From: a virus
IMG/VR virus record: IMGVR_UViG_3300029412_000011
DNA: 39,788 nt
Reading direction: 5' to 3' (one strand)
The notes below the pieces were generated by a model. That model had not been told where the DNA came from. It ran no database searches and saw only the letters and a program-made list of their open reading frames with translations. Shown piece after piece: positions 1 through 39,788 of the stretch. Within the stretch, counting starts at the first letter, position 1. Each line of letters opens with the position of its first letter. The position numbers and the translations under genes were made by a program.

Positions 1-123
1 ACAAGTGAGGCGGTAGGATGGATACACGAAATCATGAACACTACAAAGACAAAACGGCGCATGATGCGATTAGGGCAGCGGATAAGCCGCCGGATTCAGT
101 AACAAGAACAATTAATGCTATGA
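1..123 (+). repeat. Terminal direct repeat, copy 1 (assembly overlap of a circular or circularly permuted genome)
   Basis: acaagtgaggcggtaggatggatacacg...attaatgctatga is identical to 39666-39788. Confidence 0.95.
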
Positions 124-884: not shown

Positions 885-1835
885 ATGAAAAAGATTGGTT
901 TATCAGTTTATATGATAAATGTACATAGTAAAAATATGAAACAAAAATATATAAATATAAACGAAATATATAATAATAAGTCTTTTGTCGATATAGTTGA
1001 AGAGTTTTTGAATGAAATGAAGGGGGCTTATGACCGTGATGATGAATCAGAGAATATTTTTACCACTGTAAAAACAGATAGGACAGATAAGAAGGATAAA
1101 GATGGAAGACCAGACTATAAGTGCATTTTTGGTCAGATAAAAACAGGGGATTATGGAACAGCTAGTGAATTAGTAGACTCAAGAACGGGAAAAGTGTCAC
1201 ATAATAAAACGAGTAATGAAGCAGAAGTGATACCGTTTGTTTTTGGCATGCTGATTCCTGCCGGCGATAGAGATAATGGAATTATAATATTTCAAACCGA
1301 GGGAAGATTTGGAATGAAAAGCAGTTTTGAAAAAAGGTTAAGGAAGTATATTTTAGAGAAGTATCCAGATATAGATTTTAATATGGGAGCCTTACTTCCA
1401 ACAGAATATATAGAAAAGGTGATGAAGAGAGGGGTTTTGGAAAAAATAAAATTAATTTGTTTCCAAGCTCCGTTAGATACCAGGAAGGCATTATCTGTTA
1501 ACGAAGGAATAGAAATAAAGGAAGAACGCATCTACTATGGACCAACTGGATTTATCGGAAAGAAGAAAGATGCAATTTTAGGATTTTTACATGGAAAAAA
1601 TGGATTAAAAGAAATTATTGCAGATGAAAATTTTATTTATGACGAAATGAAAATGGAATTTAAGATAGGCAATAGAAAACGGACATTTAACTTGAATAAT
1701 ATAAGTAAAATTGTTCCAATAATTGATATTACAAAAGAAATGGAAGGAAGGGGGGATCATCCAGAATACGCTTTGGTAAAAAGTGAAATAAGAAAAAATG
1801 CATTAGAATTTTTGGAAGAGGTGAGAACGTCGTGA
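885..1835 (+). CDS. Uncharacterised 316-aa soluble protein (first gene of the AT-rich accessory cassette)
   Basis: Long ORF with a strong SD (GGAGGAG). AT-rich relative to its flanks. I recognise no family motif. Confidence 0.8.
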   Translation: MKKIGLSVYMINVHSKNMKQKYININEIYNNKSFVDIVEEFLNEMKGAYDRDDESENIFTTVKTDRTDKKDKDGRPDYKCIFGQIKTGDYGTASELVDSRTGKVSHNKTSNEAEVIPFVFGMLIPAGDRDNGIIIFQTEGRFGMKSSFEKRLRKYILEKYPDIDFNMGALLPTEYIEKVMKRGVLEKIKLICFQAPLDTRKALSVNEGIEIKEERIYYGPTGFIGKKKDAILGFLHGKNGLKEIIADENFIYDEMKMEFKIGNRKRTFNLNNISKIVPIIDITKEMEGRGDHPEYALVKSEIRKNALEFLEEVRTS

Positions 1836-2422
1836 TGGAAAAATATTTACATTTATTCAGAGACATCCTAAAGAACAATAATTCTATTTATTTAATAATT
1901 AGTATCTTAATATTGTTTATTATTGGAAAGAAAAGTAATATTACTTTTTTTGATTTTTCAGATATCATAAAAAAGTACACAAGTTGTTTTCGAAAAAGCA
2001 AAATAACAATATGTATAGTATTTGTATTACCTATAATTTTAGCATATATAGCAGTTAGGGAAAATAAAATAGATGATTCTACTATTAATATTATAACAAT
2101 TATAATTTCTATTTTAACGGCAATGTTTTTTACATTGATACAGGTTATCATAGATTTAAGAGAAAAATACAAATGCAAAGAAGATATAGATGCAACTAAA
2201 AGTAAGCATATAAAAGCATTAATTAATGAAACGTTTTATTTATTAATGTATGAGATAATGAATAGTATTTTTATACTTCTTTTTTGTTTTATGACTATAT
2301 TTTCAAAAAAATATGGAGAGTTAGATAGCTATATTATTTATTATTTCTCTGTGACTTTAATATTGAACTTATTTATTGTATTAAGTAGAATGTTTGACTT
2401 GATACATAATATATTAGAATAA
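1832..2422 (+). CDS. Uncharacterised 196-aa multi-pass membrane protein (about 5 hydrophobic helices)
   Basis: ATGA start/stop overlap with the upstream gene. Hydrophobic segments include IYLIISILILFIIG, ITICIVFVLPIILAYIAV, INIITIIISILTAMFFTLIQVII, FYLLMYEIMNSIFILLFCFMTIF and YIIYYFSVTLILNLFIVLS. Confidence 0.75.
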   Translation: MMEKYLHLFRDILKNNNSIYLIISILILFIIGKKSNITFFDFSDIIKKYTSCFRKSKITICIVFVLPIILAYIAVRENKIDDSTINIITIIISILTAMFFTLIQVIIDLREKYKCKEDIDATKSKHIKALINETFYLLMYEIMNSIFILLFCFMTIFSKKYGELDSYIIYYFSVTLILNLFIVLSRMFDLIHNILE

Positions 2423-2431
2423 GTATTTGAT

Positions 2432-2455
2432 AGCACCCTTCGGGGTGCTTTTCTT
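2432..2455 (+). terminator. Rho-independent terminator after the cassette
   Basis: AGCACCC-TTCG-GGGTGCT stem-loop followed by TTTCTT. Confidence 0.8.
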
Positions 2456-2513
2456 ATCCCCTTAGCTCAGTGGTAGAGCACAAATGTCCCAGGTTCGATT
2501 CCTGGAGGGGATA
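2456..2513 (+). ncRNA. tRNA-like element lacking an anticodon arm (acceptor, D and T arms only)
   Basis: Acceptor stem ATCCCCT (2456-2462) pairs with AGGGGAT (2506-2512). D-arm is GCTC-AGTGGTA-GAGC (2465-2479). T-arm is CCAGG-TTCGATT-CCTGG (2489-2505). Only 9 nt (ACAAATGTC) lie between the D and T arms. Confidence 0.6.
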
Positions 2514-2539
2514 TTTCCAAAACGAATAAAGAGGTGGTG

Positions 2540-3277
2540 ATGATGCCGAGAAAGCCGGACGAAAGAATAATTCAGGCAAAAGAACTATACCTGAAAGGAC
2601 TGAAATTAGTTGAGATTGCAAGTCAACTAAGTCTTCCGGAAGGAACAGTTAGACGATGGAAAAGTACTTATAAATGGGATAACGAACGTTCGGATAAAAA
2701 TAGCGAACGTTCGGATAAAAAGAAAGGCGGTCAGCCTAGTAATAAAAATGCAGAAAAGCATGGTTTCTTCTCGAAGTATCTTCCGGAAGAGACCTTTTCT
2801 ATTATCCAGGACATCGAGAAGAAAAATCCTCTTGATATTCTCTGGGAGAATATACAGATTGCTTATGCAGCCATCGTAAGAGCGCAGCAGATCATGTATG
2901 TAAAAGACCATGAGGATAAGACGATTGAAAAGATAGAGGAAAAAGAGGGAAATGTTATAGGTGAAAAATGGGAGGTACAACAGGCATGGGATAAACAGGC
3001 AACATTTTTAAAAGCACAGGCAAGGGCACAAGGAGAATTAAGGTCCTTGATAAAGCAATATGATGAACTGTTGCATAGTAATTATGAACTTGCAACAGAG
3101 GAGCAGAAAGCTAGGATCGAGCAGATCAGGGCGAAGACGGAGCGGTTATCTACCGAACCAACAGACAATTTGGAGGATGGAGTTGAGATTATAAATGACG
3201 CAGACGAAAAGGCAAGTCAGAATATCGGACATAGTGATACCGAAGTATCTTCCGATATTCAACGACAAGAAACATAA
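2540..3277 (+). CDS. terS: Terminase small subunit (N-terminal HTH type)
   Basis: Contains KELYLKGLKLVEIASQLSLPEGTVRRWKS HTH and lies directly upstream of terL. SD is AAAGAGGTGGTGA. Start is ATG 2540 or 2543. Confidence 0.75.
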   Translation: MMPRKPDERIIQAKELYLKGLKLVEIASQLSLPEGTVRRWKSTYKWDNERSDKNSERSDKKKGGQPSNKNAEKHGFFSKYLPEETFSIIQDIEKKNPLDILWENIQIAYAAIVRAQQIMYVKDHEDKTIEKIEEKEGNVIGEKWEVQQAWDKQATFLKAQARAQGELRSLIKQYDELLHSNYELATEEQKARIEQIRAKTERLSTEPTDNLEDGVEIINDADEKASQNIGHSDTEVSSDIQRQET

Positions 3278-4562
3278 GCATATTATTCTCACTTCTGGGC
3301 GTGCTGGAACAAAGTCAAGCTTCGCAGCAATTAAGACAGATTATCAAATTGTTGCGAATCCCCATAGTTCCGTAGTTGTTCTTCGTAAACATCATAATAA
3401 GCTGCGAAAGACAGTTTACAAAGAAATGCTCCGAGGGCTTAACCGCTTACAGATTCCTAAGAACCGCTTTCATATTACGAAAAGCCCAATGGAGATTACC
3501 TACAAAAAGTATAAAACAACAATATACTTTTCTGGATCAGATGGCATAGATGATACAAAAGGTATCATTGATGAAGAAAAGCCAATTAAGTTGGTTGTCC
3601 TGGATGAGCTGACAGAGTTTTTTGACGATGGAGATGGAGCGGATGAACTTGCAAATATAGAAGCGACATTCGTAAGAGGAAATAAAGCCGGCTTCCAGAT
3701 GATTTATTTATATAACCCACCTAAGAACCCAAATGCACCGGTAAACCTTTGGTGTAAGGAAATGGAGAAGCGGCCAGACTGCATTCATGTACATACAGAT
3801 TACAGAGATGTGCCGGTGGATTGGCTGGGGCAGGATTTGATCGATTCTGCAGAAATCATGAAGCAAACAGATATTAAGATGTATCGTTGGACATGGCTAG
3901 GCGAAGCAGTTGGTGTCGATGAACTTATCTATTATATGTTTAGCGATAGACACAGGCAGAAGGCAGAAGCTGATAGGAGATATGACCGTATTTACATTGG
4001 TGGTGACTATGGACAACAGAATGCAACAACATTTCAGGCTTTTGGGTTGGATACATATAGAAAGAAGTTTCCGGGGTTAGCAGAGTATTATTATAGTGGC
4101 CGAGAAAGCGGCAAGCAGAAAAGCCCCTCGGAATATGCAGCTGATCTGGTGGATTTCATGGATGAGCTTCATAAACAGTATGAGAACCGAGTATTTTATA
4201 TCTTTCTTGACCCGTCTGCAAAAGGGTTAGCGGAAGAGATAAGGAGAGCCACGAGAAACTTAGATTATACTGTATTTATGAGAGATGCAGAGAACGAGGT
4301 GGCATTGGGGATTAGTCGTGTACAAAAAGCATTAGTTTTTGAAATAATGAGTATATCTCCTCATCAGGAGAAAGCAATCGAAGAGTTTGGTACGTATGAA
4401 TATGATAAGAAATCCATAGAAAAAGGAAAAGAAGTACCGATAAAAGAAAAAGATCACGCGATGGATGCAATACGCTATGCCGTTATGGGTGCGTGGGATA
4501 GGATAAAATATTGGCTTCCGATAGAAGAAGCGGAGGAGGTGCAGAAAATTGAACATATTTAG
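3195..4562 (+). CDS. terL: Terminase large subunit (PBSX-like family)
   Basis: Walker A-like ILTSGRAGTKSS and Walker B-like LVVLDELTE, with a C-terminal nuclease-like region (HAMDAIRYA). The 83-nt overlap with terS leaves the exact start uncertain. Confidence 0.85.
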   Translation: MTQTKRQVRISDIVIPKYLPIFNDKKHKHIILTSGRAGTKSSFAAIKTDYQIVANPHSSVVVLRKHHNKLRKTVYKEMLRGLNRLQIPKNRFHITKSPMEITYKKYKTTIYFSGSDGIDDTKGIIDEEKPIKLVVLDELTEFFDDGDGADELANIEATFVRGNKAGFQMIYLYNPPKNPNAPVNLWCKEMEKRPDCIHVHTDYRDVPVDWLGQDLIDSAEIMKQTDIKMYRWTWLGEAVGVDELIYYMFSDRHRQKAEADRRYDRIYIGGDYGQQNATTFQAFGLDTYRKKFPGLAEYYYSGRESGKQKSPSEYAADLVDFMDELHKQYENRVFYIFLDPSAKGLAEEIRRATRNLDYTVFMRDAENEVALGISRVQKALVFEIMSISPHQEKAIEEFGTYEYDKKSIEKGKEVPIKEKDHAMDAIRYAVMGAWDRIKYWLPIEEAEEVQKIEHI

Positions 4563-5961
4563 TTATTTTAAGAAAAAAGGAATAGATACTGTAGATGCGT
4601 CCTTCTATCGGAAAATCAAGGAATGGACAAGCTGGTATAACGGCAAGGTACGAAATTTTTCCTTTTACAAAGTCTATACAGGACGAGGTACTTATAAAAG
4701 ATGCGACCGTAAGAGCCTTGGCATGGCAAAGAAGCTTTCGGAAGATATTGCGGATCTGCTTTTAAATGAGAGAGTAACGATTACTCTTGATAATGAGCGA
4801 ACAAATGAATTTGTACATAAGATTTTAGATAAGAATCATTTTTTAGTTCAAGGTAACGACTACCAGGAACGGAAAGCTTATTCCGGTACAGTGGCATACA
4901 TTCCGTATCTGGATAACATGGAAATAACGGAAGATGGAGAAATTCTTTCAGGTAATATTAAAATGAATTATGTGGATGCACCAAATATCTACCCTGTCAG
5001 TTGGAACAATGGGGAGGTTACAGAGTGCATCTTTTTATTTCCACACACAGTAAACAGAAAGAAATATGTGCAGGTACAATCACATCTGATTCAAGGCGAA
5101 GAATATGTGATTGAAAACACTGTGCTTCAATGCGTGAGTGGAAGTCAGGAAGGAGCGGAACTTCCAGAGGAAGAATGGAGAAAATTAAAACCTTTTGCAA
5201 ATATGGCAAGGCAGGTACACACAGGCAGCGATAAGCCACAGTTTGTTATTGACCGTTTGAATATAACAAATAATGCAGATGAGAGTAACCCGATGGGAAT
5301 CGCTATCTTTGCGAATGCGATAGATATCTTAAAGAAGTTAGACATAGAATTTGATTCTTATTGCAATGAGTTCCTACTTGGCCGGAAGAGAATCTTTGTT
5401 GCACCGGAACTGCTGCATAATGTGGATGGAACCCTTGCCTTCGACCCAGAAGAAGGAATCTTTTATAACCTGCCAGAAGATTACGACAGGGGGAAAGAGG
5501 GTCTTATCAAAGATATTGATATGCAGATTCGGACAGAAGCGCACAGTGCAGCAATTAATGACGACTTGAATTACTTATCATTAAAGTGCGGCTTTGGTAC
5601 GAACAGGTATCGCTTTGAATCTTCTGGAGTGAAGACAGCAACAGAAATCATTTCAGAGAACTCTGATATGTATCGGATGATTAAAAAACATGAGATTATC
5701 CTGGAAGATGCCTTGAAGCGGTTGATTAAGATTATTATCCGATTAGGGATTGTCTTAAAAGAGCCGCTTAACGAGGATACAGATATCACGATAGAATTTG
5801 ATGATTCTATCATTGAGGATAAAGAGACGGAGAGAAAGCAGGATATGCAAGATGTAGCCATAGGAGCAATGGCGATAGAAGAATACCGGGCGAAATGGTA
5901 CGGTGAAACTGTGGAACAGGCAAGAAAGAATCTTCCGGAGCAAAATCAGGTGATGGAGTAA
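4549..5961 (+). CDS. Portal protein (SPP1 gp6-like)
   Basis: 470 aa, immediately after terL. TTG start follows GGAGGAGG. The size, position and N-terminal region are typical of gp6-type portals. Confidence 0.8.
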   Translation: MNIFSYFKKKGIDTVDASFYRKIKEWTSWYNGKVRNFSFYKVYTGRGTYKRCDRKSLGMAKKLSEDIADLLLNERVTITLDNERTNEFVHKILDKNHFLVQGNDYQERKAYSGTVAYIPYLDNMEITEDGEILSGNIKMNYVDAPNIYPVSWNNGEVTECIFLFPHTVNRKKYVQVQSHLIQGEEYVIENTVLQCVSGSQEGAELPEEEWRKLKPFANMARQVHTGSDKPQFVIDRLNITNNADESNPMGIAIFANAIDILKKLDIEFDSYCNEFLLGRKRIFVAPELLHNVDGTLAFDPEEGIFYNLPEDYDRGKEGLIKDIDMQIRTEAHSAAINDDLNYLSLKCGFGTNRYRFESSGVKTATEIISENSDMYRMIKKHEIILEDALKRLIKIIIRLGIVLKEPLNEDTDITIEFDDSIIEDKETERKQDMQDVAIGAMAIEEYRAKWYGETVEQARKNLPEQNQVME

Positions 5962-10617: not shown

Positions 10618-11000
10618 TGACGGCAAAGAGAAACTTTGTAATTCAGACTCCGCGGGGAAGTATTTATACGGTAAAAACTGCAAATGGGACTGTAACAGCT
10701 AAGATGGAATGGAATCAAGGATTTTCTGGGCGAAGAGAAGCAGGTTTTAGTAAGGCACAGGGATTTATTGATTCTGAATGTATCAGAAGGATGAATCCAG
10801 AAACGCCACGATTAACAGGGGTGCTGATTAAGTCAGCAACCCTCGGAACAGTAATTGGTTCCGGAGAGATTAATCAGATCACACCCTATGCTCGTAGACA
10901 GTACTATGAACATAAAGAAAAGTCGCGTTGGTTCGAGCGAATGAAAAACAGGCATAAAGATAGTATCTTGAAAGGAGCACAGCAATATGCAGGAGGTTAA
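10617..11000 (+). CDS. Head-tail joining / minor capsid-type protein
   Basis: GTG start overlaps the upstream stop. Assigned by synteny. Confidence 0.55.
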   Translation: MTAKRNFVIQTPRGSIYTVKTANGTVTAKMEWNQGFSGRREAGFSKAQGFIDSECIRRMNPETPRLTGVLIKSATLGTVIGSGEINQITPYARRQYYEHKEKSRWFERMKNRHKDSILKGAQQYAGG

Positions 11001-11415
11001 TATTATTGATGCTATCCGTTCATTTATTCTGACTTGCCCATTTCTTGATGATTACAGGGTGAATGTAGACCATTTGTCAGAAAGTATGAGTTATTCTCTT
11101 GACCCGCTTCCTTGTGACCCAGTGTTACAGAAATATGTTGATGGTGGCAAGAAAAAACAGTTTCAGTTTGCCTTTACGAGCAAGGAGCAATATGACGAAG
11201 ATGCCAGAATCAATATCGAAAACAGCGGATTTTACCAAGCGTTTGAAGAATGGATGGAACAGCAGACAGAAAAAGGAGAAATGCCAAATCTCCCAAATGA
11301 AAAACAACATCCATATGAATTAGAAACATTAAACAGCGGCTATCTATATGATGCACAAGGCGAGTATGCCCAGTATCGTATAGAATGCCGCCTTCTTTAT
11401 ACACAGGAGGTATAA
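10987..11415 (+). CDS. Tail completion / minor capsid-type protein
   Basis: Synteny: the last gene before the major tail protein. Confidence 0.55.
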   Translation: MQEVNIIDAIRSFILTCPFLDDYRVNVDHLSESMSYSLDPLPCDPVLQKYVDGGKKKQFQFAFTSKEQYDEDARINIENSGFYQAFEEWMEQQTEKGEMPNLPNEKQHPYELETLNSGYLYDAQGEYAQYRIECRLLYTQEV

Positions 11416-11417
11416 AC

Positions 11418-11933
11418 ATGACAAAAGCAAAATTAGTTAGACGTAGCCAGAGAGTTGCGTTTTATGGCGTTCCAGTTTCTGGTAGTGAAGAAACCTCTAC
11501 ATACAACAGAATGGAGCATTTCACATCCTTGACGGAAGGAAAGAACCCAATCACATATGAGCGTCAGTATGTTGATAAAGATAGCCAGGACAGCGACGTA
11601 ACGGGATACGGAACAACTTTGGAATATGGATTTGATCATCATTCTGATGATCCAGTACTGGCGGATCTCGCAAAGGTCCAGGACGATGAACTTACTGGAG
11701 AGACACGAGATATTGTTGTAGTGGATTTCTTTGACAAGGGAGAATCTAAGAAAGATGATGAGTATGTAGCACGAAAGAGAACCTATTCCATCCTGCCAGA
11801 TTCTTCTGGAGATGGAACAGATGCATTGCAGTATTCAGGGAGTTTTTCTGTAAAAACAGATATCGTAAAGGGATATGCGAAAGTATCTCCTGACGGTAAA
11901 ACTTGTACATTCAGTGAGACAGTTACACCCTAA
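11418..11933 (+). CDS. Major tail protein
   Basis: AGGAGG SD then ATG 11418. 171 aa, in the position before the chaperones and tape measure gene. Confidence 0.7.
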   Translation: MTKAKLVRRSQRVAFYGVPVSGSEETSTYNRMEHFTSLTEGKNPITYERQYVDKDSQDSDVTGYGTTLEYGFDHHSDDPVLADLAKVQDDELTGETRDIVVVDFFDKGESKKDDEYVARKRTYSILPDSSGDGTDALQYSGSFSVKTDIVKGYAKVSPDGKTCTFSETVTP

Positions 11934-11993
11934 TGTGGCTGTCGATGTGCAGGCAGCGGAAGTAGAAGATGAAATTAAAAAGGAGATTGAGCC

Positions 11994-12410
11994 ATGAGCC
12001 AGAATGACAATGAAAGAATTTGGAAGATTAATGGACTTGAATTAGAATTGGATCTTGAAGATGCAGATATCTTTGAAAAAGTAATGAAGTCCTTTGAGCA
12101 GATGGATGCAGATGCAAATAGTCTTGATAAAGTAGGAAGTATGCCTGATTTTATTAGAGGATACTGCAATGTTCACTACAAATTCTATGACAGAGTATTT
12201 GGAGACGGAACGGGAGAGAAAATCTTTGGTGGTAAGAAAAACACCAGAATTTGTGATGAAGTCTATGATAATTTCCTTAACTTTATGCAGACAGCAGTTA
12301 AAAAAGCAAATGCAAGACGTTTTGAGATATCTAATAAGTATGCACCAAATAGAGAGCAGAGAAGAGGAAAAAAGAAGAATTTCAAATCCTATAACGGCGG
12401 TAAACGATGA
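11994..12410 (+). CDS. Tail assembly chaperone (gpG-like position)
   Basis: Acidic 138-aa protein between the major tail and tape measure genes. Confidence 0.55.
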   Translation: MSQNDNERIWKINGLELELDLEDADIFEKVMKSFEQMDADANSLDKVGSMPDFIRGYCNVHYKFYDRVFGDGTGEKIFGGKKNTRICDEVYDNFLNFMQTAVKKANARRFEISNKYAPNREQRRGKKKNFKSYNGGKR

Positions 12411-13000
12411 ATCCTTTGTACGAACCGTTTCCGGATTATGTAGTCGTAAATGACAAAAGAGTTCGGATTGTAACGGACTTCCGGGAATATATAAAGCTTA
12501 TAGATCTTTTAAAAGATGATGAAGTCAATACAATTGAGAAAGCAGAGCTCATTATGTCATGGTTTCTTGATGAACCGGCCGGAGAATTTTCAGAATGTTT
12601 GCAAGCACTATCCGACTTTGTAACGAATTATAGAGGTCGGGAAACGAGAAGCAATCGAGAGGAAGAAAACGATCAGGAGAGTGAGGAGCAGCATAATACG
12701 CCTGTAATATCATACAATCAAGATGCGCCATATATCATAGCTGGTTTTTTAGAATGCTATGGCATCGACTTAACAGAAGTGCCTTATATGCACTGGTGGA
12801 AGTTTCAGATGCTCATAGACGGCATGAATGAAGATTGTGAATTAAAGAAACGGATGGGCTATAGAAGCATTGATTTAAGTAAAATCAAAGATAAGGAAGA
12901 AAGAGAAAGGATTAGAAAAATCCAGAAGCAGATTGCGATTGTTGACCGGGTTGTAACCAGTGAAGAGATTGGAGATGCTTTTGGAAATATGATGTTTTGA
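12407..13000 (+). CDS. Tail assembly protein (Phage Gp15-like)
   Basis: ATGA overlap with the upstream gene. N-terminal YEPFPDYVVVNDKRVRIVTDFREYIKL resembles the Gp15 family. Confidence 0.55.
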   Translation: MNPLYEPFPDYVVVNDKRVRIVTDFREYIKLIDLLKDDEVNTIEKAELIMSWFLDEPAGEFSECLQALSDFVTNYRGRETRSNREEENDQESEEQHNTPVISYNQDAPYIIAGFLECYGIDLTEVPYMHWWKFQMLIDGMNEDCELKKRMGYRSIDLSKIKDKEERERIRKIQKQIAIVDRVVTSEEIGDAFGNMMF

Positions 13001-20873: not shown

Positions 20874-23654
20874 ATGCCAAGTACAGAAAATAACTACGTC
20901 GCAACGGATTTGGGCAATATCGCGCTAAACCCTTGTGGGGAATATAGTAAATCAACCTTATATGAGTATCTCGACATGGTGAGCTACCAGGGAGGTTCGT
21001 ATTTCTGTAAGGTAGATTTTCCGCAGAAAATATCCGGAATTGCGCCAGAACCGGGCAAAAACACAGAAATGTGGCAGTTGTTAACTTTGCCGGGTGACAT
21101 GACGCCGGAGTACATCGCGATTCGAGACGAGGTTGTTGAGAAAGCAGAGCAGGTAGAAAGCAGCCGAGCAGCAGTAGAACTGTCTCGGCAGGAAATTGAA
21201 GACGCACAGGCAGACGTGCAACAGATGAGGCTAGACGCGCAGGAAGCGGCTGAGCAGGCTACTGCAAGCCGTGATTCCGCCGCAGGCTACGCACAGTCCG
21301 CAGAGGCATCCAGGACAGCCGCACAAGAGGCTGAGCAGAACGCAACGGCACAGGTGCAGGGGTTTGATATGCACGTCACGGAGAAAACCTCTGAGGCGGA
21401 AGAGGCGATTTCGGAAGCAAGAACATCTGCGGTAAATGTAGTAAAAAATCAGGGCGAGAGTAGTTCTAGGGATGCCAAGTCAGCCGCAACAATCGCACAG
21501 TCAAGTGCTAGTGGTGCCGCATCTGCAGCATCTAGTGCACAAAATTCTGCTCAAGCGGCAAAGGGTTCTGCAGAAGAAGCTGCATCAGCCGCAAGTGCTG
21601 CAACCTCTGCGGCAAATTCGGCATCCTCTTTTGCTAATAATGCCTCCTCGGCAAAAGATGCAGCGGAAAAAGCATCAGAAAGTGTAAGAACCGCAGCAAC
21701 GCAGGCGATTTCTGATATTTCTACAGCTAAATCCGAAGCAACGCAGGCGGTAACGTCGGAAGGAGTAAAGCAGTTAAAATCTGTAACAACCGCCGGAGAA
21801 GAGAAAGTCACGAGCATGACACAAATAAACACCGAATTTGACACAAAAAGTTCTCAAGCATTGAATGATTTACAAACAGAAAAAGACACTGCCGTAAAAA
21901 ACATTAAAGAGCTTGCGACAGAAAAAACAGACGAGATTAACACGGCCGGCACAAGCCAGAAAAACGCAGTCAATACCGCAGGGGATACAAAAGTAAAAGC
22001 AGTTACTGATGAGGGTAATAAACAGAAAAAAGCAATTCAGGAAGTAGCGGAACCGTTCTTAAGCGACATTAACCGAATCAATACAATGTTTAATTTGCTT
22101 GCTTATACGGATAAAGTGTATTCAATCGATATCCCGCTCTGGGAGACAACACAGGGCAGTGCAGGGATTAAATCGGATGATAACGCCGGATTAATTGCGT
22201 TACCTTCCACAGCCGCAGAACATCGTCAAAATGACTACGAGGAACTTCCATGGTTTAAGACGATCGATGTAAATGCTATTGTGGATGATAACGGAATCAA
22301 AAAAATCACAGCAGTAAAGGGGGATGATAATTTCTCAGAGACAGGCAGCGCAGACGTATTTGTGTGCGGACTTGCTTTCTACGAGAAATGGTCTAATCTC
22401 GGCAATGGATACATGAGATATTCCCGGTGCTTTACCCCTCGTGAGGGATACGAATTAAACAAATTAGCATACAACTTAGACGGGACAAAGAATCCTTTCT
22501 TCCTGATTGCAAAATATCCTCTCGTCAAGGGAGAAGACGGTTTATTACATTCCCAGCCGAATAAAAGATGCGCATTTCGAACGAGTGATTCCGCAACAGA
22601 AGCTATTTCGATGAATGACAGCATTACGCACATGAAAAAACGCGGAAAATACTATTCGCTAGCCTCGTTTTTAGATAACGGATATATCCAGACCACATGG
22701 CTCTTAATGTTCGGAGATATCAATAGCGATAAAACAATGACAGGATGTACAGGTAATAATTTTCAGTTTATTGCCTCGATTGAAAGCGATGAGCTGCATA
22801 CTTATTTTCCTGTCACAAATTCGCAGGCATCTAATATCGAAGTCGGTAGTTATGTATCCGTTGGACATGAATATATGAGCGGTTCAAGTCGTTCTGCAGA
22901 TAGATATGATAAGCGAATTCACGAGCTTGCATTTGATGTTAAAGTCTTAAAAATTGAAACATTAGATGATAATAACAAGGCAGTTTATCTTGATTGTGAT
23001 GCGTTTTCGACGATACATCAGGAATCTGGAGATACGCAATTAAGATGCATTATGTCCTCGATGCACTGGAGAACCGGATTTAACAAGGATGTGAAAGGTC
23101 GGACAGGAAGCCCTTGTCCTACGGTCGCAGGTCTCACGAACAGACGATATCCTATCGTTTTTCAAGGCATCGAGATGCAGCTGGGTATCTATGAGATTAT
23201 GTCTGGATTTAGCATCATTACTGGCGATAACACACGCGAGATTTATGGATTAGCAGATGCAACAAAGGCGGTAACGGCTCCTAAACAGAATCAAGCAGGC
23301 TATATTAAGTTATCGGAGATTAGCATAACAAGCAAAAACACATGGAACTATATTACGCATTTAAATTTTAAGAATGGATATCTATGTGCAGCAAGCTGTG
23401 GAGAAAGTGGTAGCGGTAGTTCGAAAGGATGCGGCGATGCGGTAAATCTGAGTGGTAGTGTCGGAGACACGAGAGAGCTCCTGTCGTTTGGCGTTCTCTG
23501 GAACTGGGATGCCTGCGGGCTGTTCTGCCTGAGTCTGATCGGTTCGGGCTTGGGGGCTGCGGGTGGCATATCGGCGGTCGCCTTTCTGTCAACGCGGTTT
23601 TACAAGAGGGGTGAATTCCGCAAGGAAGAGGGGATTCCTCCCATCATTAACTAG
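20874..23654 (+). CDS. Tail fibre, DGR variable protein (the C-terminal region carries the VR; the 3' end is uncertain because of a 2-nt indel relative to TR)
   Basis: 926 aa with an Ala/Ser/Gln-rich helical stalk. The C-terminal ..SFGVLWNWDACGLFCLSL.. aligns with the downstream TR. Confidence 0.85.
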   Translation: MPSTENNYVATDLGNIALNPCGEYSKSTLYEYLDMVSYQGGSYFCKVDFPQKISGIAPEPGKNTEMWQLLTLPGDMTPEYIAIRDEVVEKAEQVESSRAAVELSRQEIEDAQADVQQMRLDAQEAAEQATASRDSAAGYAQSAEASRTAAQEAEQNATAQVQGFDMHVTEKTSEAEEAISEARTSAVNVVKNQGESSSRDAKSAATIAQSSASGAASAASSAQNSAQAAKGSAEEAASAASAATSAANSASSFANNASSAKDAAEKASESVRTAATQAISDISTAKSEATQAVTSEGVKQLKSVTTAGEEKVTSMTQINTEFDTKSSQALNDLQTEKDTAVKNIKELATEKTDEINTAGTSQKNAVNTAGDTKVKAVTDEGNKQKKAIQEVAEPFLSDINRINTMFNLLAYTDKVYSIDIPLWETTQGSAGIKSDDNAGLIALPSTAAEHRQNDYEELPWFKTIDVNAIVDDNGIKKITAVKGDDNFSETGSADVFVCGLAFYEKWSNLGNGYMRYSRCFTPREGYELNKLAYNLDGTKNPFFLIAKYPLVKGEDGLLHSQPNKRCAFRTSDSATEAISMNDSITHMKKRGKYYSLASFLDNGYIQTTWLLMFGDINSDKTMTGCTGNNFQFIASIESDELHTYFPVTNSQASNIEVGSYVSVGHEYMSGSSRSADRYDKRIHELAFDVKVLKIETLDDNNKAVYLDCDAFSTIHQESGDTQLRCIMSSMHWRTGFNKDVKGRTGSPCPTVAGLTNRRYPIVFQGIEMQLGIYEIMSGFSIITGDNTREIYGLADATKAVTAPKQNQAGYIKLSEISITSKNTWNYITHLNFKNGYLCAASCGESGSGSSKGCGDAVNLSGSVGDTRELLSFGVLWNWDACGLFCLSLIGSGLGAAGGISAVAFLSTRFYKRGEFRKEEGIPPIIN
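23477..23586 (+). repeat. DGR variable repeat (VR)
   Basis: Aligns with 23673-23780. All 19 substitutions fall at TR adenines, and there is one 2-nt (TT, 23543-23544) insertion. Confidence 0.9.
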
Positions 23655-23672: not shown

Positions 23673-23780
23673 GCTCCAGTCGTTTGGCAATCTCAGGAAC
23701 AGGGATACCTGCGGGCTGTTCTACCTGAATCTGAACAACAGGCTTGGGAACTACAGGTGGAATATCGGCGGTCGCAATTC
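23673..23780 (+). repeat. DGR template repeat (TR)
   Basis: Non-coding copy of the VR, starting 18 nt after the fibre stop. Its adenines sit in AAC/AAT/TAC/AGG codons of a single frame. Confidence 0.9.
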
Positions 23781-27999: not shown

Positions 28000-29556
28000 T
28001 TAAATAAGAGGAGTTATATCAATCTCAAAAGTGCTTTTTCTCCAACGATTTCCTTTTTCCTTATCAGTTGTATATGTTATTTTTTTTATACATTTTTTTA
28101 GTAGCATATTTTTTTGTAAAATATCTATATCTGGATTCTTTAAGGCTTCCACAGTATCTGTAAAGGATATAATTTTTTCTTGGTAGTCAATTTTAACGGG
28201 TTCTTGCACCTTTGCTTCTTGAAGTTTGTCTAATAATACTTCACGCTCTTCTAATAACTTTTGCCGCCGCTTTTTGAATAATTCTGGAGTATAAATTTTG
28301 TTTTCTAACATTTCATATTGCGTTTCTTCTCGAACCTCTAGGTCTTGTAATTGTTTGCTTAAAACAGAAATAATTTGAGAGCGAACATTGAAGGAATTTC
28401 CGTCATCATTTTCTAATTTAACTTTAAAATCTTCAATATAGCATTCAAGAGCACTAATTATTTGATTTATAACATCTGTTGCTTTTGCTGATTTAGTATG
28501 GCAATTAGATTGATTATTGCATAAGTATCGAGGAGACTGCTTTTCGCTTCCGGCATCATTCTTATATGTCTTGTAACTCATTGCTCGGCCACAATTACCG
28601 CAAAATATTAATCCGGCCAAAGGGTTTATAAGTTTACTACTACTATGATTTCTTGGAGTCTTACCGTTGCACTCCTGGGCAGAATCAAAAAGAGTTTCAT
28701 CAATGATAGCTTCATGAATGCCATCTGAAATAATAGAATCATTCAAGGCTATAGGCCTTGTTTTAAGTAAAGATTCGTTTTTATATTTCATTACAGTTTT
28801 CCTGCGATTCCATCTAACCTTACCAATATATACCGGATTGTGTAAAATTTCTTTTAAACTATATGGACTCCAAGAGGTAGATTTTCTAGGTTTTATGTTC
28901 ATGGTATTTAATTTGTTTGCAATGGCAGCGTAACTCAGCGATTCATTTACATATAAATGGTAGATGAGCTGAACAACCGTTGCCTCATCAGAATTAGGCT
29001 TCAAAGTATTTACTGTGTGCTTATTTTCTTTGTAAGAATATTTATCGTAACCATACGGAGCGGTACTCCCAATATACTGTCCAGACCTTACAGAAGCAAT
29101 ACGTCCCCTAGCTTGAATCATTTTATAATATTCAAGATAATCAGAACCCTTATCTAATTCCATCTTGAACAACTTTAAATCAAAGTCATTATTCAAATCA
29201 AAAGTTTTATAAGGAGTGATGATTTTTGTATTAGTATATTTAAATACATTAATTAAATGCCCCTTATCAAGCAAATCTCCACGTGTTAAACGTTGTGGAT
29301 CAACAACAAATACCCCTTTAATTTTTTTTGACTCCATCACCTTTAATATCTGAGATATAACAGGTCTATCTGTGATTGTTTCGCCAGATACAACCTCTCG
29401 AAAGATTTTATCTTCAGGAATACGATTGCCTAAAGTGCGTTCAGCGAGTGACTGGAGTTCTGATTCGTGTTTTGCAAATACTTCTTCTAAACTAGATTTT
29501 TCGCTATCTGCACGAGACTTTCTCAAATAGATTACATAAGTTTCATTTTCCTGCAT
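28000..29556 (-). CDS. Large serine recombinase (integrase), paralogue 1
   Basis: YLRKSRAD catalytic Ser region, recombinase domain (APYGYDK...NPVYIGKVRW), zinc ribbon (CGNCGRAMSY...YLCNN) and coiled-coil tail. Confidence 0.9.
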   Translation of the reverse strand: MQENETYVIYLRKSRADSEKSSLEEVFAKHESELQSLAERTLGNRIPEDKIFREVVSGETITDRPVISQILKVMESKKIKGVFVVDPQRLTRGDLLDKGHLINVFKYTNTKIITPYKTFDLNNDFDLKLFKMELDKGSDYLEYYKMIQARGRIASVRSGQYIGSTAPYGYDKYSYKENKHTVNTLKPNSDEATVVQLIYHLYVNESLSYAAIANKLNTMNIKPRKSTSWSPYSLKEILHNPVYIGKVRWNRRKTVMKYKNESLLKTRPIALNDSIISDGIHEAIIDETLFDSAQECNGKTPRNHSSSKLINPLAGLIFCGNCGRAMSYKTYKNDAGSEKQSPRYLCNNQSNCHTKSAKATDVINQIISALECYIEDFKVKLENDDGNSFNVRSQIISVLSKQLQDLEVREETQYEMLENKIYTPELFKKRRQKLLEEREVLLDKLQEAKVQEPVKIDYQEKIISFTDTVEALKNPDIDILQKNMLLKKCIKKITYTTDKEKGNRWRKSTFEIDITPLI

Positions 29557-29571
29557 TTTGAAACACCTCGC

Positions 29572-39599: not shown

Positions 39600-39673
39600 G
39601 TATAACAGAAGCAATAGTAATTATAGCAGCATTAACTTATACAGGATTTGTATTTTACATACTTAACAAGTGA
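39596..39673 (+). CDS. Possible 25-aa single-TM peptide
   Basis: ATGA overlap with the upstream stop. Product is MSITEAIVIIAALTYTGFVFYILNK. Confidence 0.25.
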   Translation: MSITEAIVIIAALTYTGFVFYILNK

Positions 39674-39788
39674 GGCGGTAGGATGGATACACGAAATCAT
39701 GAACACTACAAAGACAAAACGGCGCATGATGCGATTAGGGCAGCGGATAAGCCGCCGGATTCAGTAACAAGAACAATTAATGCTATGA
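39666..39788 (+). repeat. Terminal direct repeat, copy 2
   Basis: Identical to 1-123. It contains the start of the same ORF as 18..206 (ATG at 39683). Confidence 0.95.

What the first reader, a model, noticed from the sequence alone, without database searches (positions are those of the whole stretch)
2456..2513. tRNA-like element with intact acceptor, D and T arms but no anticodon arm, 21 nt upstream of the terS ribosome-binding site
A 7-bp acceptor stem (ATCCCCT/AGGGGAT), a canonical D-arm (GCTC-AGTGGTA-GAGC) and a canonical T-arm (CCAGG-TTCGATT-CCTGG) are all present. Only 9 nt (ACAAATGTC) occupy the space where a 17-nt anticodon stem-loop plus variable loop should be, giving 57 nt in total plus discriminator A. 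It cannot decode. It retains everything that RNase P, RNase Z and the CCA-adding enzyme recognise (the acceptor/T 'top half'). It sits exactly between the cassette terminator and the start of the late (packaging) operon. Possible roles are a processing or punctuation signal defining the 5' end of the late mRNA, a stable decoy for tRNA-binding host or defence factors, or a decayed tRNA gene.
Basis: partly seen in the sequence, partly recalled or inferred. Interest (0 to 1): 0.7.

Follow-up and report, generated by a model that had tools for sequence, protein, structure and literature searches.

The report
Phage tRNA-like RNA lacking anticodon arm
Just upstream of this gut phage's DNA-packaging genes sits a conserved 58-nt RNA gene shaped like a tRNA with its anticodon arm removed, and it belongs to a widespread, apparently unstudied class of phage tRNA look-alikes that cannot decode and probably serve as cutting signals or decoys.

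Summary
Window 2456-2513 (+) has a 7-bp acceptor stem, a D-arm and a T-arm, with 9 nt where the 17-nt anticodon arm and variable loop should be (Rfam tRNA 49 bits; ARAGORN silent). It is not a decayed tRNA. In 40 of 88 phages with a related terS the tRNA-like core stays 98-100% identical while terS DNA falls to ~80%. Stem changes other than at pair 1-72 keep pairing, and only the connector varies (6, 9, 13 or 14 nt). No relative has a full tRNA at that site. The arm-less form is a discrete class, found in more than 70 lineages. These come from phages and prophages of Firmicutes, Actinobacteria, Bacteroidota and Proteobacteria, including cultured Lactobacillus and Polaribacter phages, where it is labelled "tRNA-OTHER". 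Recurrent context is a hairpin abutting the 5' end and a start codon 18-33 nt after the 3' end. About a third sit in phage tRNA arrays, and one jumbo phage carries ~20 mini versions. Best reading (inferred, not shown): it is an L-shaped tRNA body cut out by host RNase P and RNase Z. That would separate upstream RNA from the late packaging mRNA, as plant-mitochondrial t-elements do, and release a small stable RNA. A trans-acting decoy role is the main rival. I found no published description.

The parts
2432..2455 (+). GC-rich hairpin AGCACCC-TTCG-GGGTGCT (2432-2449) plus U-rich tract TTTCTT (2450-2455), abutting the element's 5' end. It is terminator-like. It would be the 3' end of the upstream RNA after RNase P cleavage, and the U-rich tract would serve as the 5' leader.
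   Evidence: Terminator scan. 35 of 40 family loci have such a hairpin ending 7 nt or less before the element. There are two stem types with covarying stems and loops, joined to at least five different upstream sequences.
2456..2462 (+). Acceptor stem, 5' strand (AUCCCCU).
   Evidence: Family variants C3U, C4U and C6U all keep G.U pairs, and only position 1 varies freely.
2463..2479 (+). U8-A9 and the D-arm (GCUC / AGUGGUA / GAGC), carrying A14, G15, G18, G19 and A21.
   Evidence: These positions are invariant or nearly so across 59 class representatives. The G15-C48 tertiary pair covaries as G-C or A-U in 65 of 71 lineages and forms a standard pair in 58 of 59 aligned representatives.
2480..2488 (+). 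Connector ACAAAUGUC, made of position 26, a 3-nt bridge (CAA), and the variable-loop equivalent AUGUC (44-48). It replaces the anticodon stem-loop.
   Evidence: The Rfam alignment collapses 17 nt to 3 nt. Family variants are AATGTC, ACAAATGTC, ATAAATGTC, ATAAAGCAATGTC, ACAGATTTATGTC and ATAAACTGAATGTC.
2489..2505 (+). T-arm (CCAGG / UUCGAUU / CCUGG).
   Evidence: Family changes are C49U, A51G and C61U, all giving G.U pairs. The full compensatory changes are CCGGG/CCCGG in L007 and GGTGG/CCATC in L020.
2506..2513 (+). Acceptor stem 3' strand (AGGGGAU) and discriminator A73. No CCA is encoded; UUU follows.
   Evidence: The 3' strand is unchanged in 14 of the 16 family variants. Across the class, 44 of 71 have A73 and only 4 of 71 encode CCA.
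2514..2539 (+). terS leader UUUCCAAAACGAAUAAAGAGGUGGUG, comprising the conserved CAAAAC...ACGAAU box and a strong SD. It would be the 5' end of the late mRNA after RNase Z cleavage.
   Evidence: The leader box is conserved in terS relatives with and without the element. The SD and start are read.
2540..3277 (+). Terminase small subunit gene (terS), the first gene of the packaging and late module. terL is at 3195-4562 and the portal gene at 4549-5961.
   Evidence: PHROG phrog_509, E 2e-76. Pfam Terminase_5 and Phage_terminase. terL hits phrog_2 and Terminase_3. The portal hits phrog_533.

Best explanation
Window 2456-2513 encodes a non-decoding 'tRNA body'. This is an RNA that folds into the L-shaped tRNA core (acceptor/T-arm stack, D-arm, D-loop/T-loop elbow, 15-48 tertiary pair). 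The anticodon stem-loop is replaced by a 3-nt bridge. It is transcribed on the + strand as part of the RNA that runs from the upstream region through the hairpin into terS. Because it keeps the parts that tRNA-processing enzymes read, host RNase P would cut at its 5' end. That leaves the upstream RNA ending in the protective hairpin. RNase Z would cut after A73, which is CCA-less and followed by UUU. The late packaging mRNA then gets a defined 5' end about 17 nt before its strong SD, and a 57-58-nt tRNA-like RNA is released that can receive CCA. In effect it is a phage version of tRNA punctuation, or of a t-element, placed at the early/moron-to-late boundary. Shown here: the structure, its conservation under purifying selection as a plus-sense RNA, its class membership and its recurrent context. 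Inferred: transcription through the hairpin, cleavage by RNase P and RNase Z, and the benefit to late-gene expression.
For: Structure: Rfam tRNA 49 bits with the arm deleted and a matching MFE fold.

Selection within the family: 40 of 88 terS-homologue loci carry the element, in 16 variants. Stem substitutions away from pair 1-72 preserve pairing: C-to-U opposite G, A-to-G opposite U, and double compensatory changes in L007 and L020. Pairing is lost only at pair 1-72. The connector has 6-, 9-, 13- and 14-nt forms. The core is 98-100% identical where terS DNA is ~80%, the leader 77% and the upstream 40 nt ~60%. G.U-tolerant changes occur on one strand only, which indicates a plus-sense RNA rather than a DNA hairpin.

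Class level: 98.3% of cells are paired, against 68% in shuffles and 40-50% when partners are slid. The covariation score is 0.81 against 0.19. The spacing distribution is bimodal with a sharp peak for complete arm loss.

Context consistent with a cis processing signal: a hairpin ends 7 nt or less before the element in 35 of 40 family loci. Across the class, 25 of 69 lineages have an abutting hairpin against 12 of 69 control windows, and upstream MFE is -11.5 against -8.1 (p = 6e-4). An SD-preceded start lies 18-33 nt after the 3' end in 11 of 37 lineages, where ~1.4 would be expected. The genes so coupled include terS, terL, portal, head-tail adaptor and nucleases. The same terminator-element-ATG layout occurs in the unrelated Polaribacter phage Danklef_1. 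U at position -1 occurs in 33 of 71 and A73 in 44 of 71, and CCA is rarely encoded, all compatible with RNase P and RNase Z substrates.

Cassette-less relatives place the element directly after a conserved 130-nt non-coding block. In another phage that block directly precedes an unrelated terS, which puts the element in the late leader.

Precedent: plant-mitochondrial t-elements define mRNA ends through RNase P/Z, and are CCA-tailed but not aminoacylated (PMC1920247; bioRxiv 10.1101/2024.09.09.612099; PMC5499578).
Against: No transcript data exist, so neither read-through of the hairpin nor any cleavage is shown.

The hairpin looks like a competent intrinsic terminator. If it is efficient, little RNA would reach the element. 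No promoter could be placed: the sigma-70 scans were negative or at chance.

About a third of class members sit inside tRNA arrays. In Lactobacillus phage 3-SAC12 a promoter drives an arm-less element, a tetraloop-capped tRNA-like and tRNA-Met. Jumbo-phage locus L033 has ~20 same-strand mini elements in ORF-free stretches. None of these needs mRNA punctuation, and all suggest a trans function.

A bare acceptor/T minihelix suffices for RNase P and RNase Z (established enzymology). The strict retention of the D-arm and the 15-48 pair therefore hints at an additional partner.

Some close relatives (L120, L148, L150, L153) lack the element, and more distant terS clades manage with only hairpin plus leader. 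The element is therefore not essential for terS expression.

Pair 1-72 is A-U here and is variable or mismatched in the family, which is not the G1-C72 that RNase P prefers.
Confidence: 0.45

Rival explanations
1. Trans-acting tRNA-body RNA. The element's main product is the excised ~58-nt L-shaped RNA, which binds a protein that recognises the tRNA acceptor end, T-arm or elbow but not the anticodon. It might act as a decoy or competitive inhibitor of tRNA-targeting immunity or toxins that act on the acceptor end. From general knowledge these include CapRel/toxSAS pyrophosphokinases, MenT/AbiEii nucleotidyltransferases and GNAT acetyltransferases. Alternatively it might titrate or recruit a host tRNA enzyme. 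Its position before terS would then simply be the permissive slot where phage tRNA genes and morons accumulate.
For: About one third of class members lie in phage tRNA arrays on the same strand. 3-SAC12 has a promoter (TGTTATAAT) driving an arm-less element, a tRNA-like with a UUAU-capped anticodon stem, and tRNA-Met. L033 has 4 arm-less elements plus ~16 mini elements of 43-47 nt in ORF-free stretches, all on one strand (21 hits on that strand against 0 on the other, 0.36 in shuffles). The full D-arm, elbow and 15-48 pair are retained beyond what RNase P or RNase Z need. A subset carries the anticodon-independent alanine identity G3:U70, mostly with A73 (9 of 71, plus Danklef). A second lineage near terS keeps the body while the anticodon region is degenerate, tetraloop-capped or scrambled.
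Against: No conserved protein partner gene was found next to the elements; the downstream and upstream genes are heterogeneous. No defence or anti-defence gene was detected in the window's cassette (PADLOC). A stoichiometric decoy against an enzyme needs high expression, but the window's copy sits behind a terminator with no visible promoter. The tight spacing to the next start codon and the abutting hairpin are not explained by a purely trans role. Acceptor sequences are extremely diverse, so no single specific tRNA is being mimicked.
Confidence: 0.3
2. A 5'-terminal structure that stays on the late mRNA. RNase P or transcription initiation leaves the tRNA-like fold at the 5' end of the terS transcript, and it is not removed by RNase Z. 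There it protects the mRNA from 5'-exonucleolytic decay (RNase J-type in Firmicutes), or it positions the ribosome-binding site.
For: The 3' end lies a fixed 18-33 nt from the start codon in 11 lineages. In cassette-less relatives the element lies immediately after the probable late-promoter block, so it would be at the very 5' end of the transcript. The fold is very stable and compact.
Against: Any stable hairpin would do this job. It does not explain conservation of the T-loop, the D-loop GG, the 15-48 pair and a 7-bp acceptor stem. It does not explain members in arrays. A73 followed by UUU without CCA is the classic RNase Z context (established knowledge for B. subtilis RNase Z; not tested here).
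Confidence: 0.12
3. A DNA-level element: a conserved sequence acting as a recombination junction for module exchange, or a packaging or recognition site near terS, whose tRNA-like appearance is only a relic of ancestry.
For: Mosaic breakpoints coincide with the element's ends. The same element is joined to at least five upstream modules and to two unrelated downstream genes: terS phrog_509, and a phrog_940/8680 nuclease-like gene in L027, L054 and L073. L192 lost the 5' acceptor strand. L098 keeps the element plus about 10 terS codons as a relic upstream of a replacement terS. Connector variants are shuffled relative to terS similarity.
Against: Substitutions preserve RNA base pairing, including G.U on one strand only, together with compensatory double changes. 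A protein-binding DNA site or a DNA cruciform would not show this. No partial copies or target-site duplications exist in the window. Breakpoints at the edges are what is expected for any selected block in a mosaic region.
Confidence: 0.08
4. A decaying tRNA pseudogene: a lineage-specific deletion of the anticodon hairpin with no function.
For: Hairpin deletions by replication slippage are easy. Some close relatives have lost the element altogether (L120, L148, L150, L153). Annotators flag such genes as pseudo or tRNA-OTHER.
Against: The core is 98-100% conserved while the neighbouring coding DNA is ~80%. Only pair-preserving stem changes are seen away from pair 1-72. The spacing distribution is bimodal, with a discrete peak for complete arm loss and a trough at intermediate lengths. 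Well-formed elements make up 70 of 119 pattern hits in viral contigs but only 18 of 113 in cellular genomes. No relative has the intact tRNA at this site.
Confidence: 0.05

Closest known systems
Plant-mitochondrial t-elements (Hanic-Joyce 1990; Forner et al. 2007, PMC1920247)
   Same: They are tRNA-derived, non-decoding cloverleaf remnants with a conserved GGTTCRANYCC T-arm. They are embedded next to mRNAs, and their ends coincide with mRNA termini. They are cut by RNase P and RNase Z and are CCA-tailed but not aminoacylated. At least one, at nad6, lacks the anticodon arm (PMC5499578). The position just upstream of a coding region mirrors the cox1, rps4 and ccmFN1 t-elements.
   Different: t-elements are organellar, few, heterogeneous in which arm is degenerate, and processed by protein-only RNase P. 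The phage elements form a discrete architecture: an intact D-arm, elbow and 15-48 pair, with an 8-9-nt connector as the commonest form. They occur in many bacterial phyla, often with an abutting hairpin, and also occur in tRNA arrays. No processing data exist for them.
tRNA punctuation and tRNA-mRNA co-transcripts (animal mitochondria; bacterial operons such as thrU-tyrU-glyT-thrT-tufB; general knowledge)
   Same: A tRNA-shaped unit inside a polycistronic RNA directs RNase P and RNase Z cuts that liberate the flanking mRNAs.
   Different: Those units are real decoding tRNAs. Here the unit cannot decode, so processing or a non-translational role is its only possible function.
mascRNA / MALAT1 and MEN-beta tRNA-like 3' modules (mentioned)
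   Same: A tRNA-like fold with a reduced anticodon arm is cleaved by RNase P and RNase Z and then CCA-tailed. This defines the end of the long RNA and releases a ~60-nt small RNA.
   Different: It is eukaryotic and nuclear, lies at the 3' end of a lncRNA, and keeps a short anticodon stem. There is no homology.
tmRNA tRNA-like domain
   Same: It has an acceptor stem plus T-arm without an anticodon, and is charged via G3:U70. A subset of the phage class (9 of 71, plus Danklef_1) has G3:U70, mostly with A73.
   Different: tmRNA has no D stem, contains a large mRNA-like insert with pseudoknots, and needs SmpB. The window's element has C3:G70 and an intact D-arm, and ARAGORN finds no tmRNA.
Pseudo-tRNAs with regulatory roles (for example Bacillus cereus tRNA-Other; general knowledge) and entries annotated 'tRNA-OTHER / Undet(NNN)'
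   Same: These are non-decoding tRNA-like genes picked up by tRNAscan-type tools. Lactobacillus phage 3-SAC12 and Polaribacter phages Danklef_1-5 carry class members annotated exactly this way.
   Different: B. cereus tRNA-Other keeps an anticodon arm. The database labels carry no functional interpretation.
RNase P-matured phage regulatory RNAs (P1/P7 C4 RNA, phi80 M3 RNA; listed in PMC11143913)
   Same: These are phage small RNAs whose maturation depends on host RNase P.
   Different: They are antisense or oop-type RNAs, not tRNA-shaped. phi80 M3 is annotated as an oop homologue.

Membership tests
Canonical tRNA (Rfam RF00005) | Score at or above the family gathering threshold | tested here: met
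   49.0 bits against a gathering score of 29, E 1.2e-07.
Canonical tRNA (Rfam RF00005) | 7-bp acceptor stem, D-arm and T-arm with the conserved U8, A14, G18, G19 and T-loop UUCGAUU | tested here: met
Canonical tRNA (Rfam RF00005) | Anticodon stem (5 bp) with a 7-nt loop presenting an anticodon | tested here: not met
   The 17-nt arm is replaced by 3 nt. ARAGORN makes no call. The same is true in all family members.
Plant-mitochondrial t-elements (works-like comparison) | Non-canonical tRNA-like fold with a conserved T-arm motif GGTTCRANYCC | tested here: met
   GGTTCGATTCC at 2492-2502. The motif definition comes from PMC1920247.
Plant-mitochondrial t-elements (works-like comparison) | Located at the 5' or 3' boundary of an mRNA on the same strand | tested here: met
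   26 nt lie between the element and the terS ATG, and the hairpin of the upstream genes abuts the 5' end.
Plant-mitochondrial t-elements (works-like comparison) | Element ends coincide with mapped transcript termini; cleavage by RNase P and RNase Z; non-templated CCA | not testable with these tools
   No transcriptome or biochemical data are available.
Plant-mitochondrial t-elements (works-like comparison) | Homology or shared descent with organellar t-elements | tested here: not met
   The genetic system is different (a phage of gut Clostridia). The class derives from many different tRNA bodies.
tmRNA tRNA-like domain | G3:U70 alanine identity, absence of a D stem, mRNA-like ORF and pseudoknots between the two halves | tested here: not met
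   Pair 3:70 is C:G, the D stem is intact, and the element is a contiguous 58 nt. ARAGORN finds no tmRNA.
Integration-derived tRNA gene fragment (attP/attL/attR remnant; PMC9897764) | A partial tRNA, usually the 3' part from the anticodon or T-loop onward, next to an integrase or at a prophage end | tested here: not met
   Both acceptor strands, the D-arm and the T-arm are present. The large minus-strand ORFs that may encode recombinases lie at 28000-31086, about 25 kb away. The window is a complete genome with a 123-nt terminal repeat.
Phage arm-less tRNA-like class (defined here; model R1) | Acceptor 6-7 of 7 bp, D-arm, T-arm, R15-Y48 pair, and a connector of about 6-14 nt between the D and T stems (8-9 nt in most of the class) | tested here: met
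   The window scores 74.0 bits with R1, against 47 bits or less for canonical tRNAs. The connector is 9 nt and 15-48 is G-C.

The most novel reading that the evidence does not exclude
Phages across many bacterial phyla encode a discrete, so far uncharacterised class of 'tRNA bodies'. These are L-shaped RNAs with the anticodon arm deleted. In some phages the D-arm is also gone, or the anticodon loop is replaced by a tetraloop. They are excised by the host tRNA-processing machinery and act in trans. One possibility is that they are decoys or inhibitors for immunity factors and toxins that recognise the tRNA acceptor end or elbow. Another is that they hijack tRNA enzymes, with a subset even being charged with alanine. 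The terS-proximal copy in this window would be one such gene.
Probability: 0.25. Interest if true: 0.9.

Novelty: new variant of a known kind. Interest (0 to 1): 0.78.

Why it matters
Phage tRNA genes are usually discussed only in terms of codon usage or of escaping anticodon nucleases. A conserved, widespread family of phage tRNA genes that cannot decode shows that the tRNA body itself is a selected module. If it works as a processing signal, it brings the mitochondrial idea of tRNA punctuation and t-elements into bacterial viruses. It would also explain how morons with their own terminators can sit in front of late operons. If it works in trans, it is a new type of phage small RNA aimed at tRNA-binding host factors.

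In practical terms, these elements are currently unannotated or labelled "tRNA-OTHER" or pseudo. Cultured Lactobacillus and Polaribacter phages carry them, so the question is directly testable. The covariance model built here separates them cleanly from real tRNAs.

Tried and rejected
1. Phage phi80 M3 RNA, a classic RNase P substrate, as a historical member of the class. It is annotated in JX871397 as an oop-RNA homologue (60 nt, antisense) and is not tRNA-shaped.

2. Cronobacter phage GAP32 'tRNA-Lys' and Pectobacterium phage CBB 'tRNA-Phe'. One BLAST piece suggested short D-to-T spacing. On inspection it is a 127-nt tRNA with a long insertion, and Rfam does not call it.

3. The upstream cassette as a Kiwa-like or other defence system. 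PADLOC and Pfam gave no hits, and there is no similarity to the DUF4868 protein next to the JNU_P5 element (E = 1.1).

4. The element as a cassette insertion site with target duplication. L119 shows a suggestive TTCTTCTCCTT remnant, but the window has no partial copies above chance.

5. A sigma-70 promoter between the hairpin and terS, or in the conserved 130-nt block. None was found. The block matches no Rfam family and is not significantly structured (z = -0.8).

6. Close DNA relatives among cultured phages. There is no megablast hit. The nearest terS is in Acutalibacter phage Fontainebleau at 55%.

7. Universal alanine identity. G3:U70 occurs in only 9 of 71 lineages and not in the window.

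8. Literature. Eight full-text searches found no description of arm-less tRNA-like genes in phages. The library is open-access only, so absence is not proof.
Full report
**1.

Window 2456-2513 (+) reads ATCCCCT-TA-GCTC-AGTGGTA-GAGC-ACAAATGTC-CCAGG-TTCGATT-CCTGG-AGGGGAT-A. Rfam's tRNA covariance model matches exactly these coordinates at 49.0 bits (gathering score 29, E 1.2e-07). It aligns every part of a tRNA except the anticodon arm, whose 17 positions are replaced by 3 nt. This is the only Rfam hit in the 39.8-kb window. ARAGORN reports no tRNA or tmRNA. The predicted minimum-energy fold is exactly acceptor, D and T helices (-22.1 kcal/mol, z = -2.8).

Directly upstream is a terminator-like hairpin (2432-2449) plus TTTCTT, ending at 2455. 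Downstream, after the leader TTTCCAAAACGAATAAAGAGGTGGTG, come terS (phrog_509, E 2e-76), terL and the portal gene. Upstream lie a late-regulator-like gene (142-723, phrog_36) and a two-gene cassette of unknown function (885-2422). The window has a perfect 123-nt terminal repeat, so it is a complete genome of about 39.7 kb. Its nearest cultured relative by terS is Acutalibacter phage Fontainebleau at 55%, so the host is probably a gut Clostridia member.

**2. It is conserved, not decayed**

I fetched 80 viral contigs by terS homology, independently of the RNA, and read the DNA upstream of terS in each. There are 16 sequence variants.

- Stem changes other than at pair 1-72 keep the base pair. 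These are C-to-U opposite G in the acceptor, D and T stems, A51G opposite U63, and double compensatory changes in L007 and L020. Position 1-72 varies freely.
- The acceptor 3' strand is unchanged in 14 of the 16 variants. G.U-tolerant changes therefore fall on one strand, as expected for a plus-sense RNA and not for a DNA hairpin.
- The connector that replaces the anticodon arm has 6-, 9-, 13- and 14-nt forms.
- Where the first 600 nt of terS have diverged to ~80% identity, the leader to 77% and the 40 nt upstream to ~60%, the tRNA-like core is still 98-100% identical.

More distant terS clades have only hairpin plus the conserved CAAAAC...ACGAAT leader. Four close relatives have lost the element, so it is beneficial rather than indispensable.

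**3. A second lineage tells the same story**

In the 62%-identity terS clade, a different tRNA body (acceptor CGGAACA) lies about 125 nt upstream of terS. L141 has the canonical form, tRNA(UAU), about 1 kb upstream. L178-type copies have a 4-bp anticodon stem with A33 in place of the near-universal U33. L190 has an AAAG tetraloop cap. L165 and L191 have a chimeric 44-nt insert. Acceptor, D and T arms are invariant throughout. Again the body is kept and decoding is lost.

**4. It belongs to a widespread, discrete class**

Of 119 hits, 70 (59 unique sequences) have a complete 6-7-bp acceptor stem, D-arm and T-arm.

- Extending the allowed spacing showed a bimodal distribution. There is a sharp peak at 11-12 nt, where the arm is entirely gone (31 of 58 unique well-formed elements). 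A trough follows at 13-20 nt. Near-normal tRNAs appear at 22-24 nt, many with 6-nt or tetraloop anticodon loops.
- The same pattern in 185,579 cellular genomes gave mostly chance hits. Only 18 of 113 were well-formed. Several of these are identical to viral-contig elements or sit by phage-type tRNA clusters, in Corynebacterium, Streptococcus, Glutamicibacter, Microbacterium and Lacticaseibacillus. The class is therefore phage or prophage-associated and spans Firmicutes, Actinobacteria, Bacteroidota and Proteobacteria.
- On an alignment of 59 representatives, 98.3% of cells form pairs, against 68% in shuffles and 40-50% with slid partners. The covariation score is 0.81 against 0.19. The stems were partly pre-filtered, which is a caveat.
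- The tertiary R15-Y48 pair was not part of my filter. It is G-C or A-U in 65 of 71 lineages and forms a standard pair in 58 of 59 aligned representatives.
- A covariance model built from the alignment scores arm-less elements at 50-75 bits and normal tRNAs at 47 bits or less.

Cultured phages carry class members. These are Lactobacillus phages LBR48, Lb and 3-SAC12 (annotated 'tRNA-OTHER', pseudo), JNU_P5 and LFP01, and Polaribacter phages Danklef_1-5 ('tRNA-OTHER, Undet NNN'). Eight literature searches found no description of such elements in phages. The library is open-access only.

**5. Context**

Two features recur in independent lineages.

- A GC-rich hairpin abuts the 5' end. In the family, 35 of 40 loci have one ending 7 nt or less before position 1. 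There are two stem types whose stems and loops covary, attached to at least five unrelated upstream modules, so the hairpin travels with the element. Across the class, 25 of 69 lineages have one against 12 of 69 control windows, and upstream folding energy is -11.5 against -8.1 kcal/mol (p = 6e-4).
- An SD-preceded start codon lies 18-33 nt after the 3' end in 11 of 37 scorable lineages, where about 1.4 would be expected. The genes include terS of several PHROG families, terL, portal, head-tail adaptor and nucleases.

Polaribacter phage Danklef_1 shows the identical layout: terminator, 4 nt, element, 13 nt, ATG. Cassette-less relatives (L134, L145, L007, L095) place the element right after a conserved ~130-nt non-coding block. 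In L098 that block directly precedes the RBS of an unrelated terS, and in L119 it precedes a moron cassette. This is most simply the late promoter and leader region, although no sigma-70 promoter or known RNA family is detectable in it.

Other contexts point the opposite way. About a third of class members lie in phage tRNA arrays. In 3-SAC12 a TGTTATAAT promoter drives an arm-less element, a tRNA-like with a UUAU-capped anticodon stem, and tRNA-Met. The jumbo-phage locus L033 has 4 arm-less elements and ~16 mini elements of 43-47 nt, each an acceptor stem plus T-arm plus a GG-containing connector. All are on one strand in ORF-free stretches (21 hits against 0 on the other strand, 0.36 in shuffles).

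**6. Mechanism**

What is shown: a plus-sense RNA structure retaining the acceptor/T-arm stack, the D-arm and the elbow is under purifying selection, while the anticodon arm is dispensable.

What follows from established enzymology is inference. Bacterial RNase P reads the acceptor/T stack, the elbow and a U-rich leader. RNase Z cleaves CCA-less precursors after the discriminator. The CCA-adding enzyme reads the top half. On that basis the element should be excised like a tRNA. Class statistics are compatible with this: U at -1 in 33 of 71, A73 in 44 of 71, and CCA encoded in only 4 of 71.

My best explanation (confidence 0.45) is a phage t-element or punctuation module. RNase P cleavage leaves the upstream RNA ending in the hairpin. 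RNase Z cleavage gives the late mRNA a defined 5' end just ahead of its strong SD. A ~58-nt tRNA body is released.

The main rival (0.30) is that the released RNA is the point, acting as a trans-acting decoy or cofactor for proteins that bind tRNA without reading the anticodon. The arrays support this, as does the retention of more structure than RNase P or RNase Z need. A G3:U70 (alanine-identity) subset also fits (9 of 71 plus Danklef_1), although the window's copy is C3:G70. The two readings are not exclusive.

Lesser rivals are a retained 5' stabiliser (0.12), a DNA-level recombination or packaging site (0.08; contradicted by the RNA-type covariation) and a decaying pseudogene (0.05; contradicted by sections 2-4).

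**7. Comparison with known systems, and novelty**

Functionally the closest known systems are plant-mitochondrial t-elements. These are cleaved by RNase P and RNase Z at mRNA ends, are CCA-tailed and base-modified, and are not aminoacylated; the nad6 element lacks the anticodon arm. Also close are mascRNA-type modules and classical tRNA punctuation.

The element is not a canonical tRNA, because the anticodon arm test fails. It is not a tmRNA domain, an integration remnant or a Y-RNA-type mimic (see the membership table).

I rate it a new variant of a known kind: tRNA-like processing or mimic elements, here as a discrete arm-less architecture in bacteriophages. Interest is high because the class is widespread, conserved, apparently unstudied and present in cultured phages, so it can be tested directly.

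Noticed in passing
L033 (IMGVR_UViG_2529292852_000001, 180-kb contig), minus strand: 350-410, 2052-2113, 3556-3610, 10701-10761; mini elements at 2520-3100 and 10850-12880: A jumbo-phage locus has 4 arm-less tRNA-likes plus ~16 'mini' elements of 43-47 nt. Each mini element has an acceptor stem, a T-arm and a 14-15-nt GG-containing connector, with no D stem and no anticodon arm. Most belong to a repeated family UGGCACG...GUGCCAA at ~110-130-nt spacing in ORF-free DNA. There are 21 hits on one strand, 0 on the other and 0.36 in shuffles. ARAGORN finds no tRNA there.
   Followed up: partly
L425 (Lactobacillus phage 3-SAC12, MK504442) 2620-2688; L231; L190 3804-3874: These are tRNA-like genes whose 5-bp anticodon stem is capped by a 4-nt loop (UUAU, UUCG, AAAG) instead of a 7-nt anticodon loop. 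This is another non-decoding tRNA form in phages. In 3-SAC12 it sits between an arm-less element and tRNA-Met, behind a TGTTATAAT promoter.
   Followed up: partly
L199, L200, L210, L227, L253, L298 and other loci: Many viral-contig tRNA-like genes have 6-nt anticodon loops, which ARAGORN reports as 'tRNA-???' with a 2-nt anticodon. One recurrent family is GCGGAAATAGCTCATCGGTAGAGCGTTGGTATTCCAGCCAAAGAGTGGGGTTCGA..., seen in at least 6 contigs. They may form a further population of non-standard phage tRNAs.
   Followed up: no
L165 3776-3875, L191; L178 3802-3873; L141 1489-1560: A second tRNA-body lineage (acceptor CGGAACA) lies near terS in a sister clade. It runs from canonical tRNA(UAU), to an A33 variant, to a tetraloop, to a chimeric 44-nt duplication that combines two variants. 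The body is invariant throughout.
   Followed up: yes
L134 3776-3905; L119 2104-2222; L098 9045-9170; L007, L145, L095: A conserved ~130-nt non-coding block ends in GGTGCTGGCATACGTGTTTTA. It precedes the element plus terS, or a moron cassette, or directly the RBS of an unrelated terS. It is probably the late promoter and leader, but it has no sigma-70 match, no Rfam match and no significant fold. The window lacks it.
   Followed up: partly
window 2517-2539 and the equivalent position in L118-L197: The leader motif CCAAAAC-(n)-ACGAAT-(n)-GAGGTG directly upstream of terS is conserved across the whole terS family (61-100% identity), with or without the tRNA-like element. Its function is unknown; it may be a translation, packaging or regulatory signal.
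   Followed up: no
L098 8911-9030: This is a relic of module replacement. An arm-less element, the leader and the first ~10 codons of the window-type terS (MPRKPEK...) are stranded upstream of a terminator, the 130-nt block and a different-type terS.
   Followed up: partly
window 885-2422: A two-gene AT-rich cassette (316 aa with a weak phrog_15676 hit; 196 aa that reads as hydrophobic, possibly membrane-spanning) sits between the late regulator and the element. It has no Pfam or PADLOC hit. Relatives carry different cassettes at the same place, so this looks like a moron hotspot.
   Followed up: partly
window 1-123 and 39666-39788: There is a perfect 123-nt direct terminal repeat, so the window is a complete circularly closed or terminally redundant genome of ~39,665 bp.
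   Followed up: yes
window 23477-23586 and 23673-23780: Two adjacent segments of 62 and 40 nt are repeated ~195 nt downstream at 83-87% identity. They straddle the end of the 926-aa ORF (20874-23654), and look like a local duplication at the 3' end of a large ORF of unassigned function in the structural-gene region.
   Followed up: no
L058, L086, L115, L330 (about 25 nt upstream of their arm-less elements): Four different arm-less elements share a conserved upstream motif, CCTTGTAAYGGAGATTGTTAA, located just after a short ORF. This looks like a sub-family with its own flanking signal.
   Followed up: no
L033 396-2051 (minus strand): A 551-aa TnpB/IS605-type transposase ORF starts immediately after an arm-less element, with 0 nt between them. 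Similar transposases are common in large Firmicutes myophages. The juxtaposition may be incidental.
   Followed up: partly
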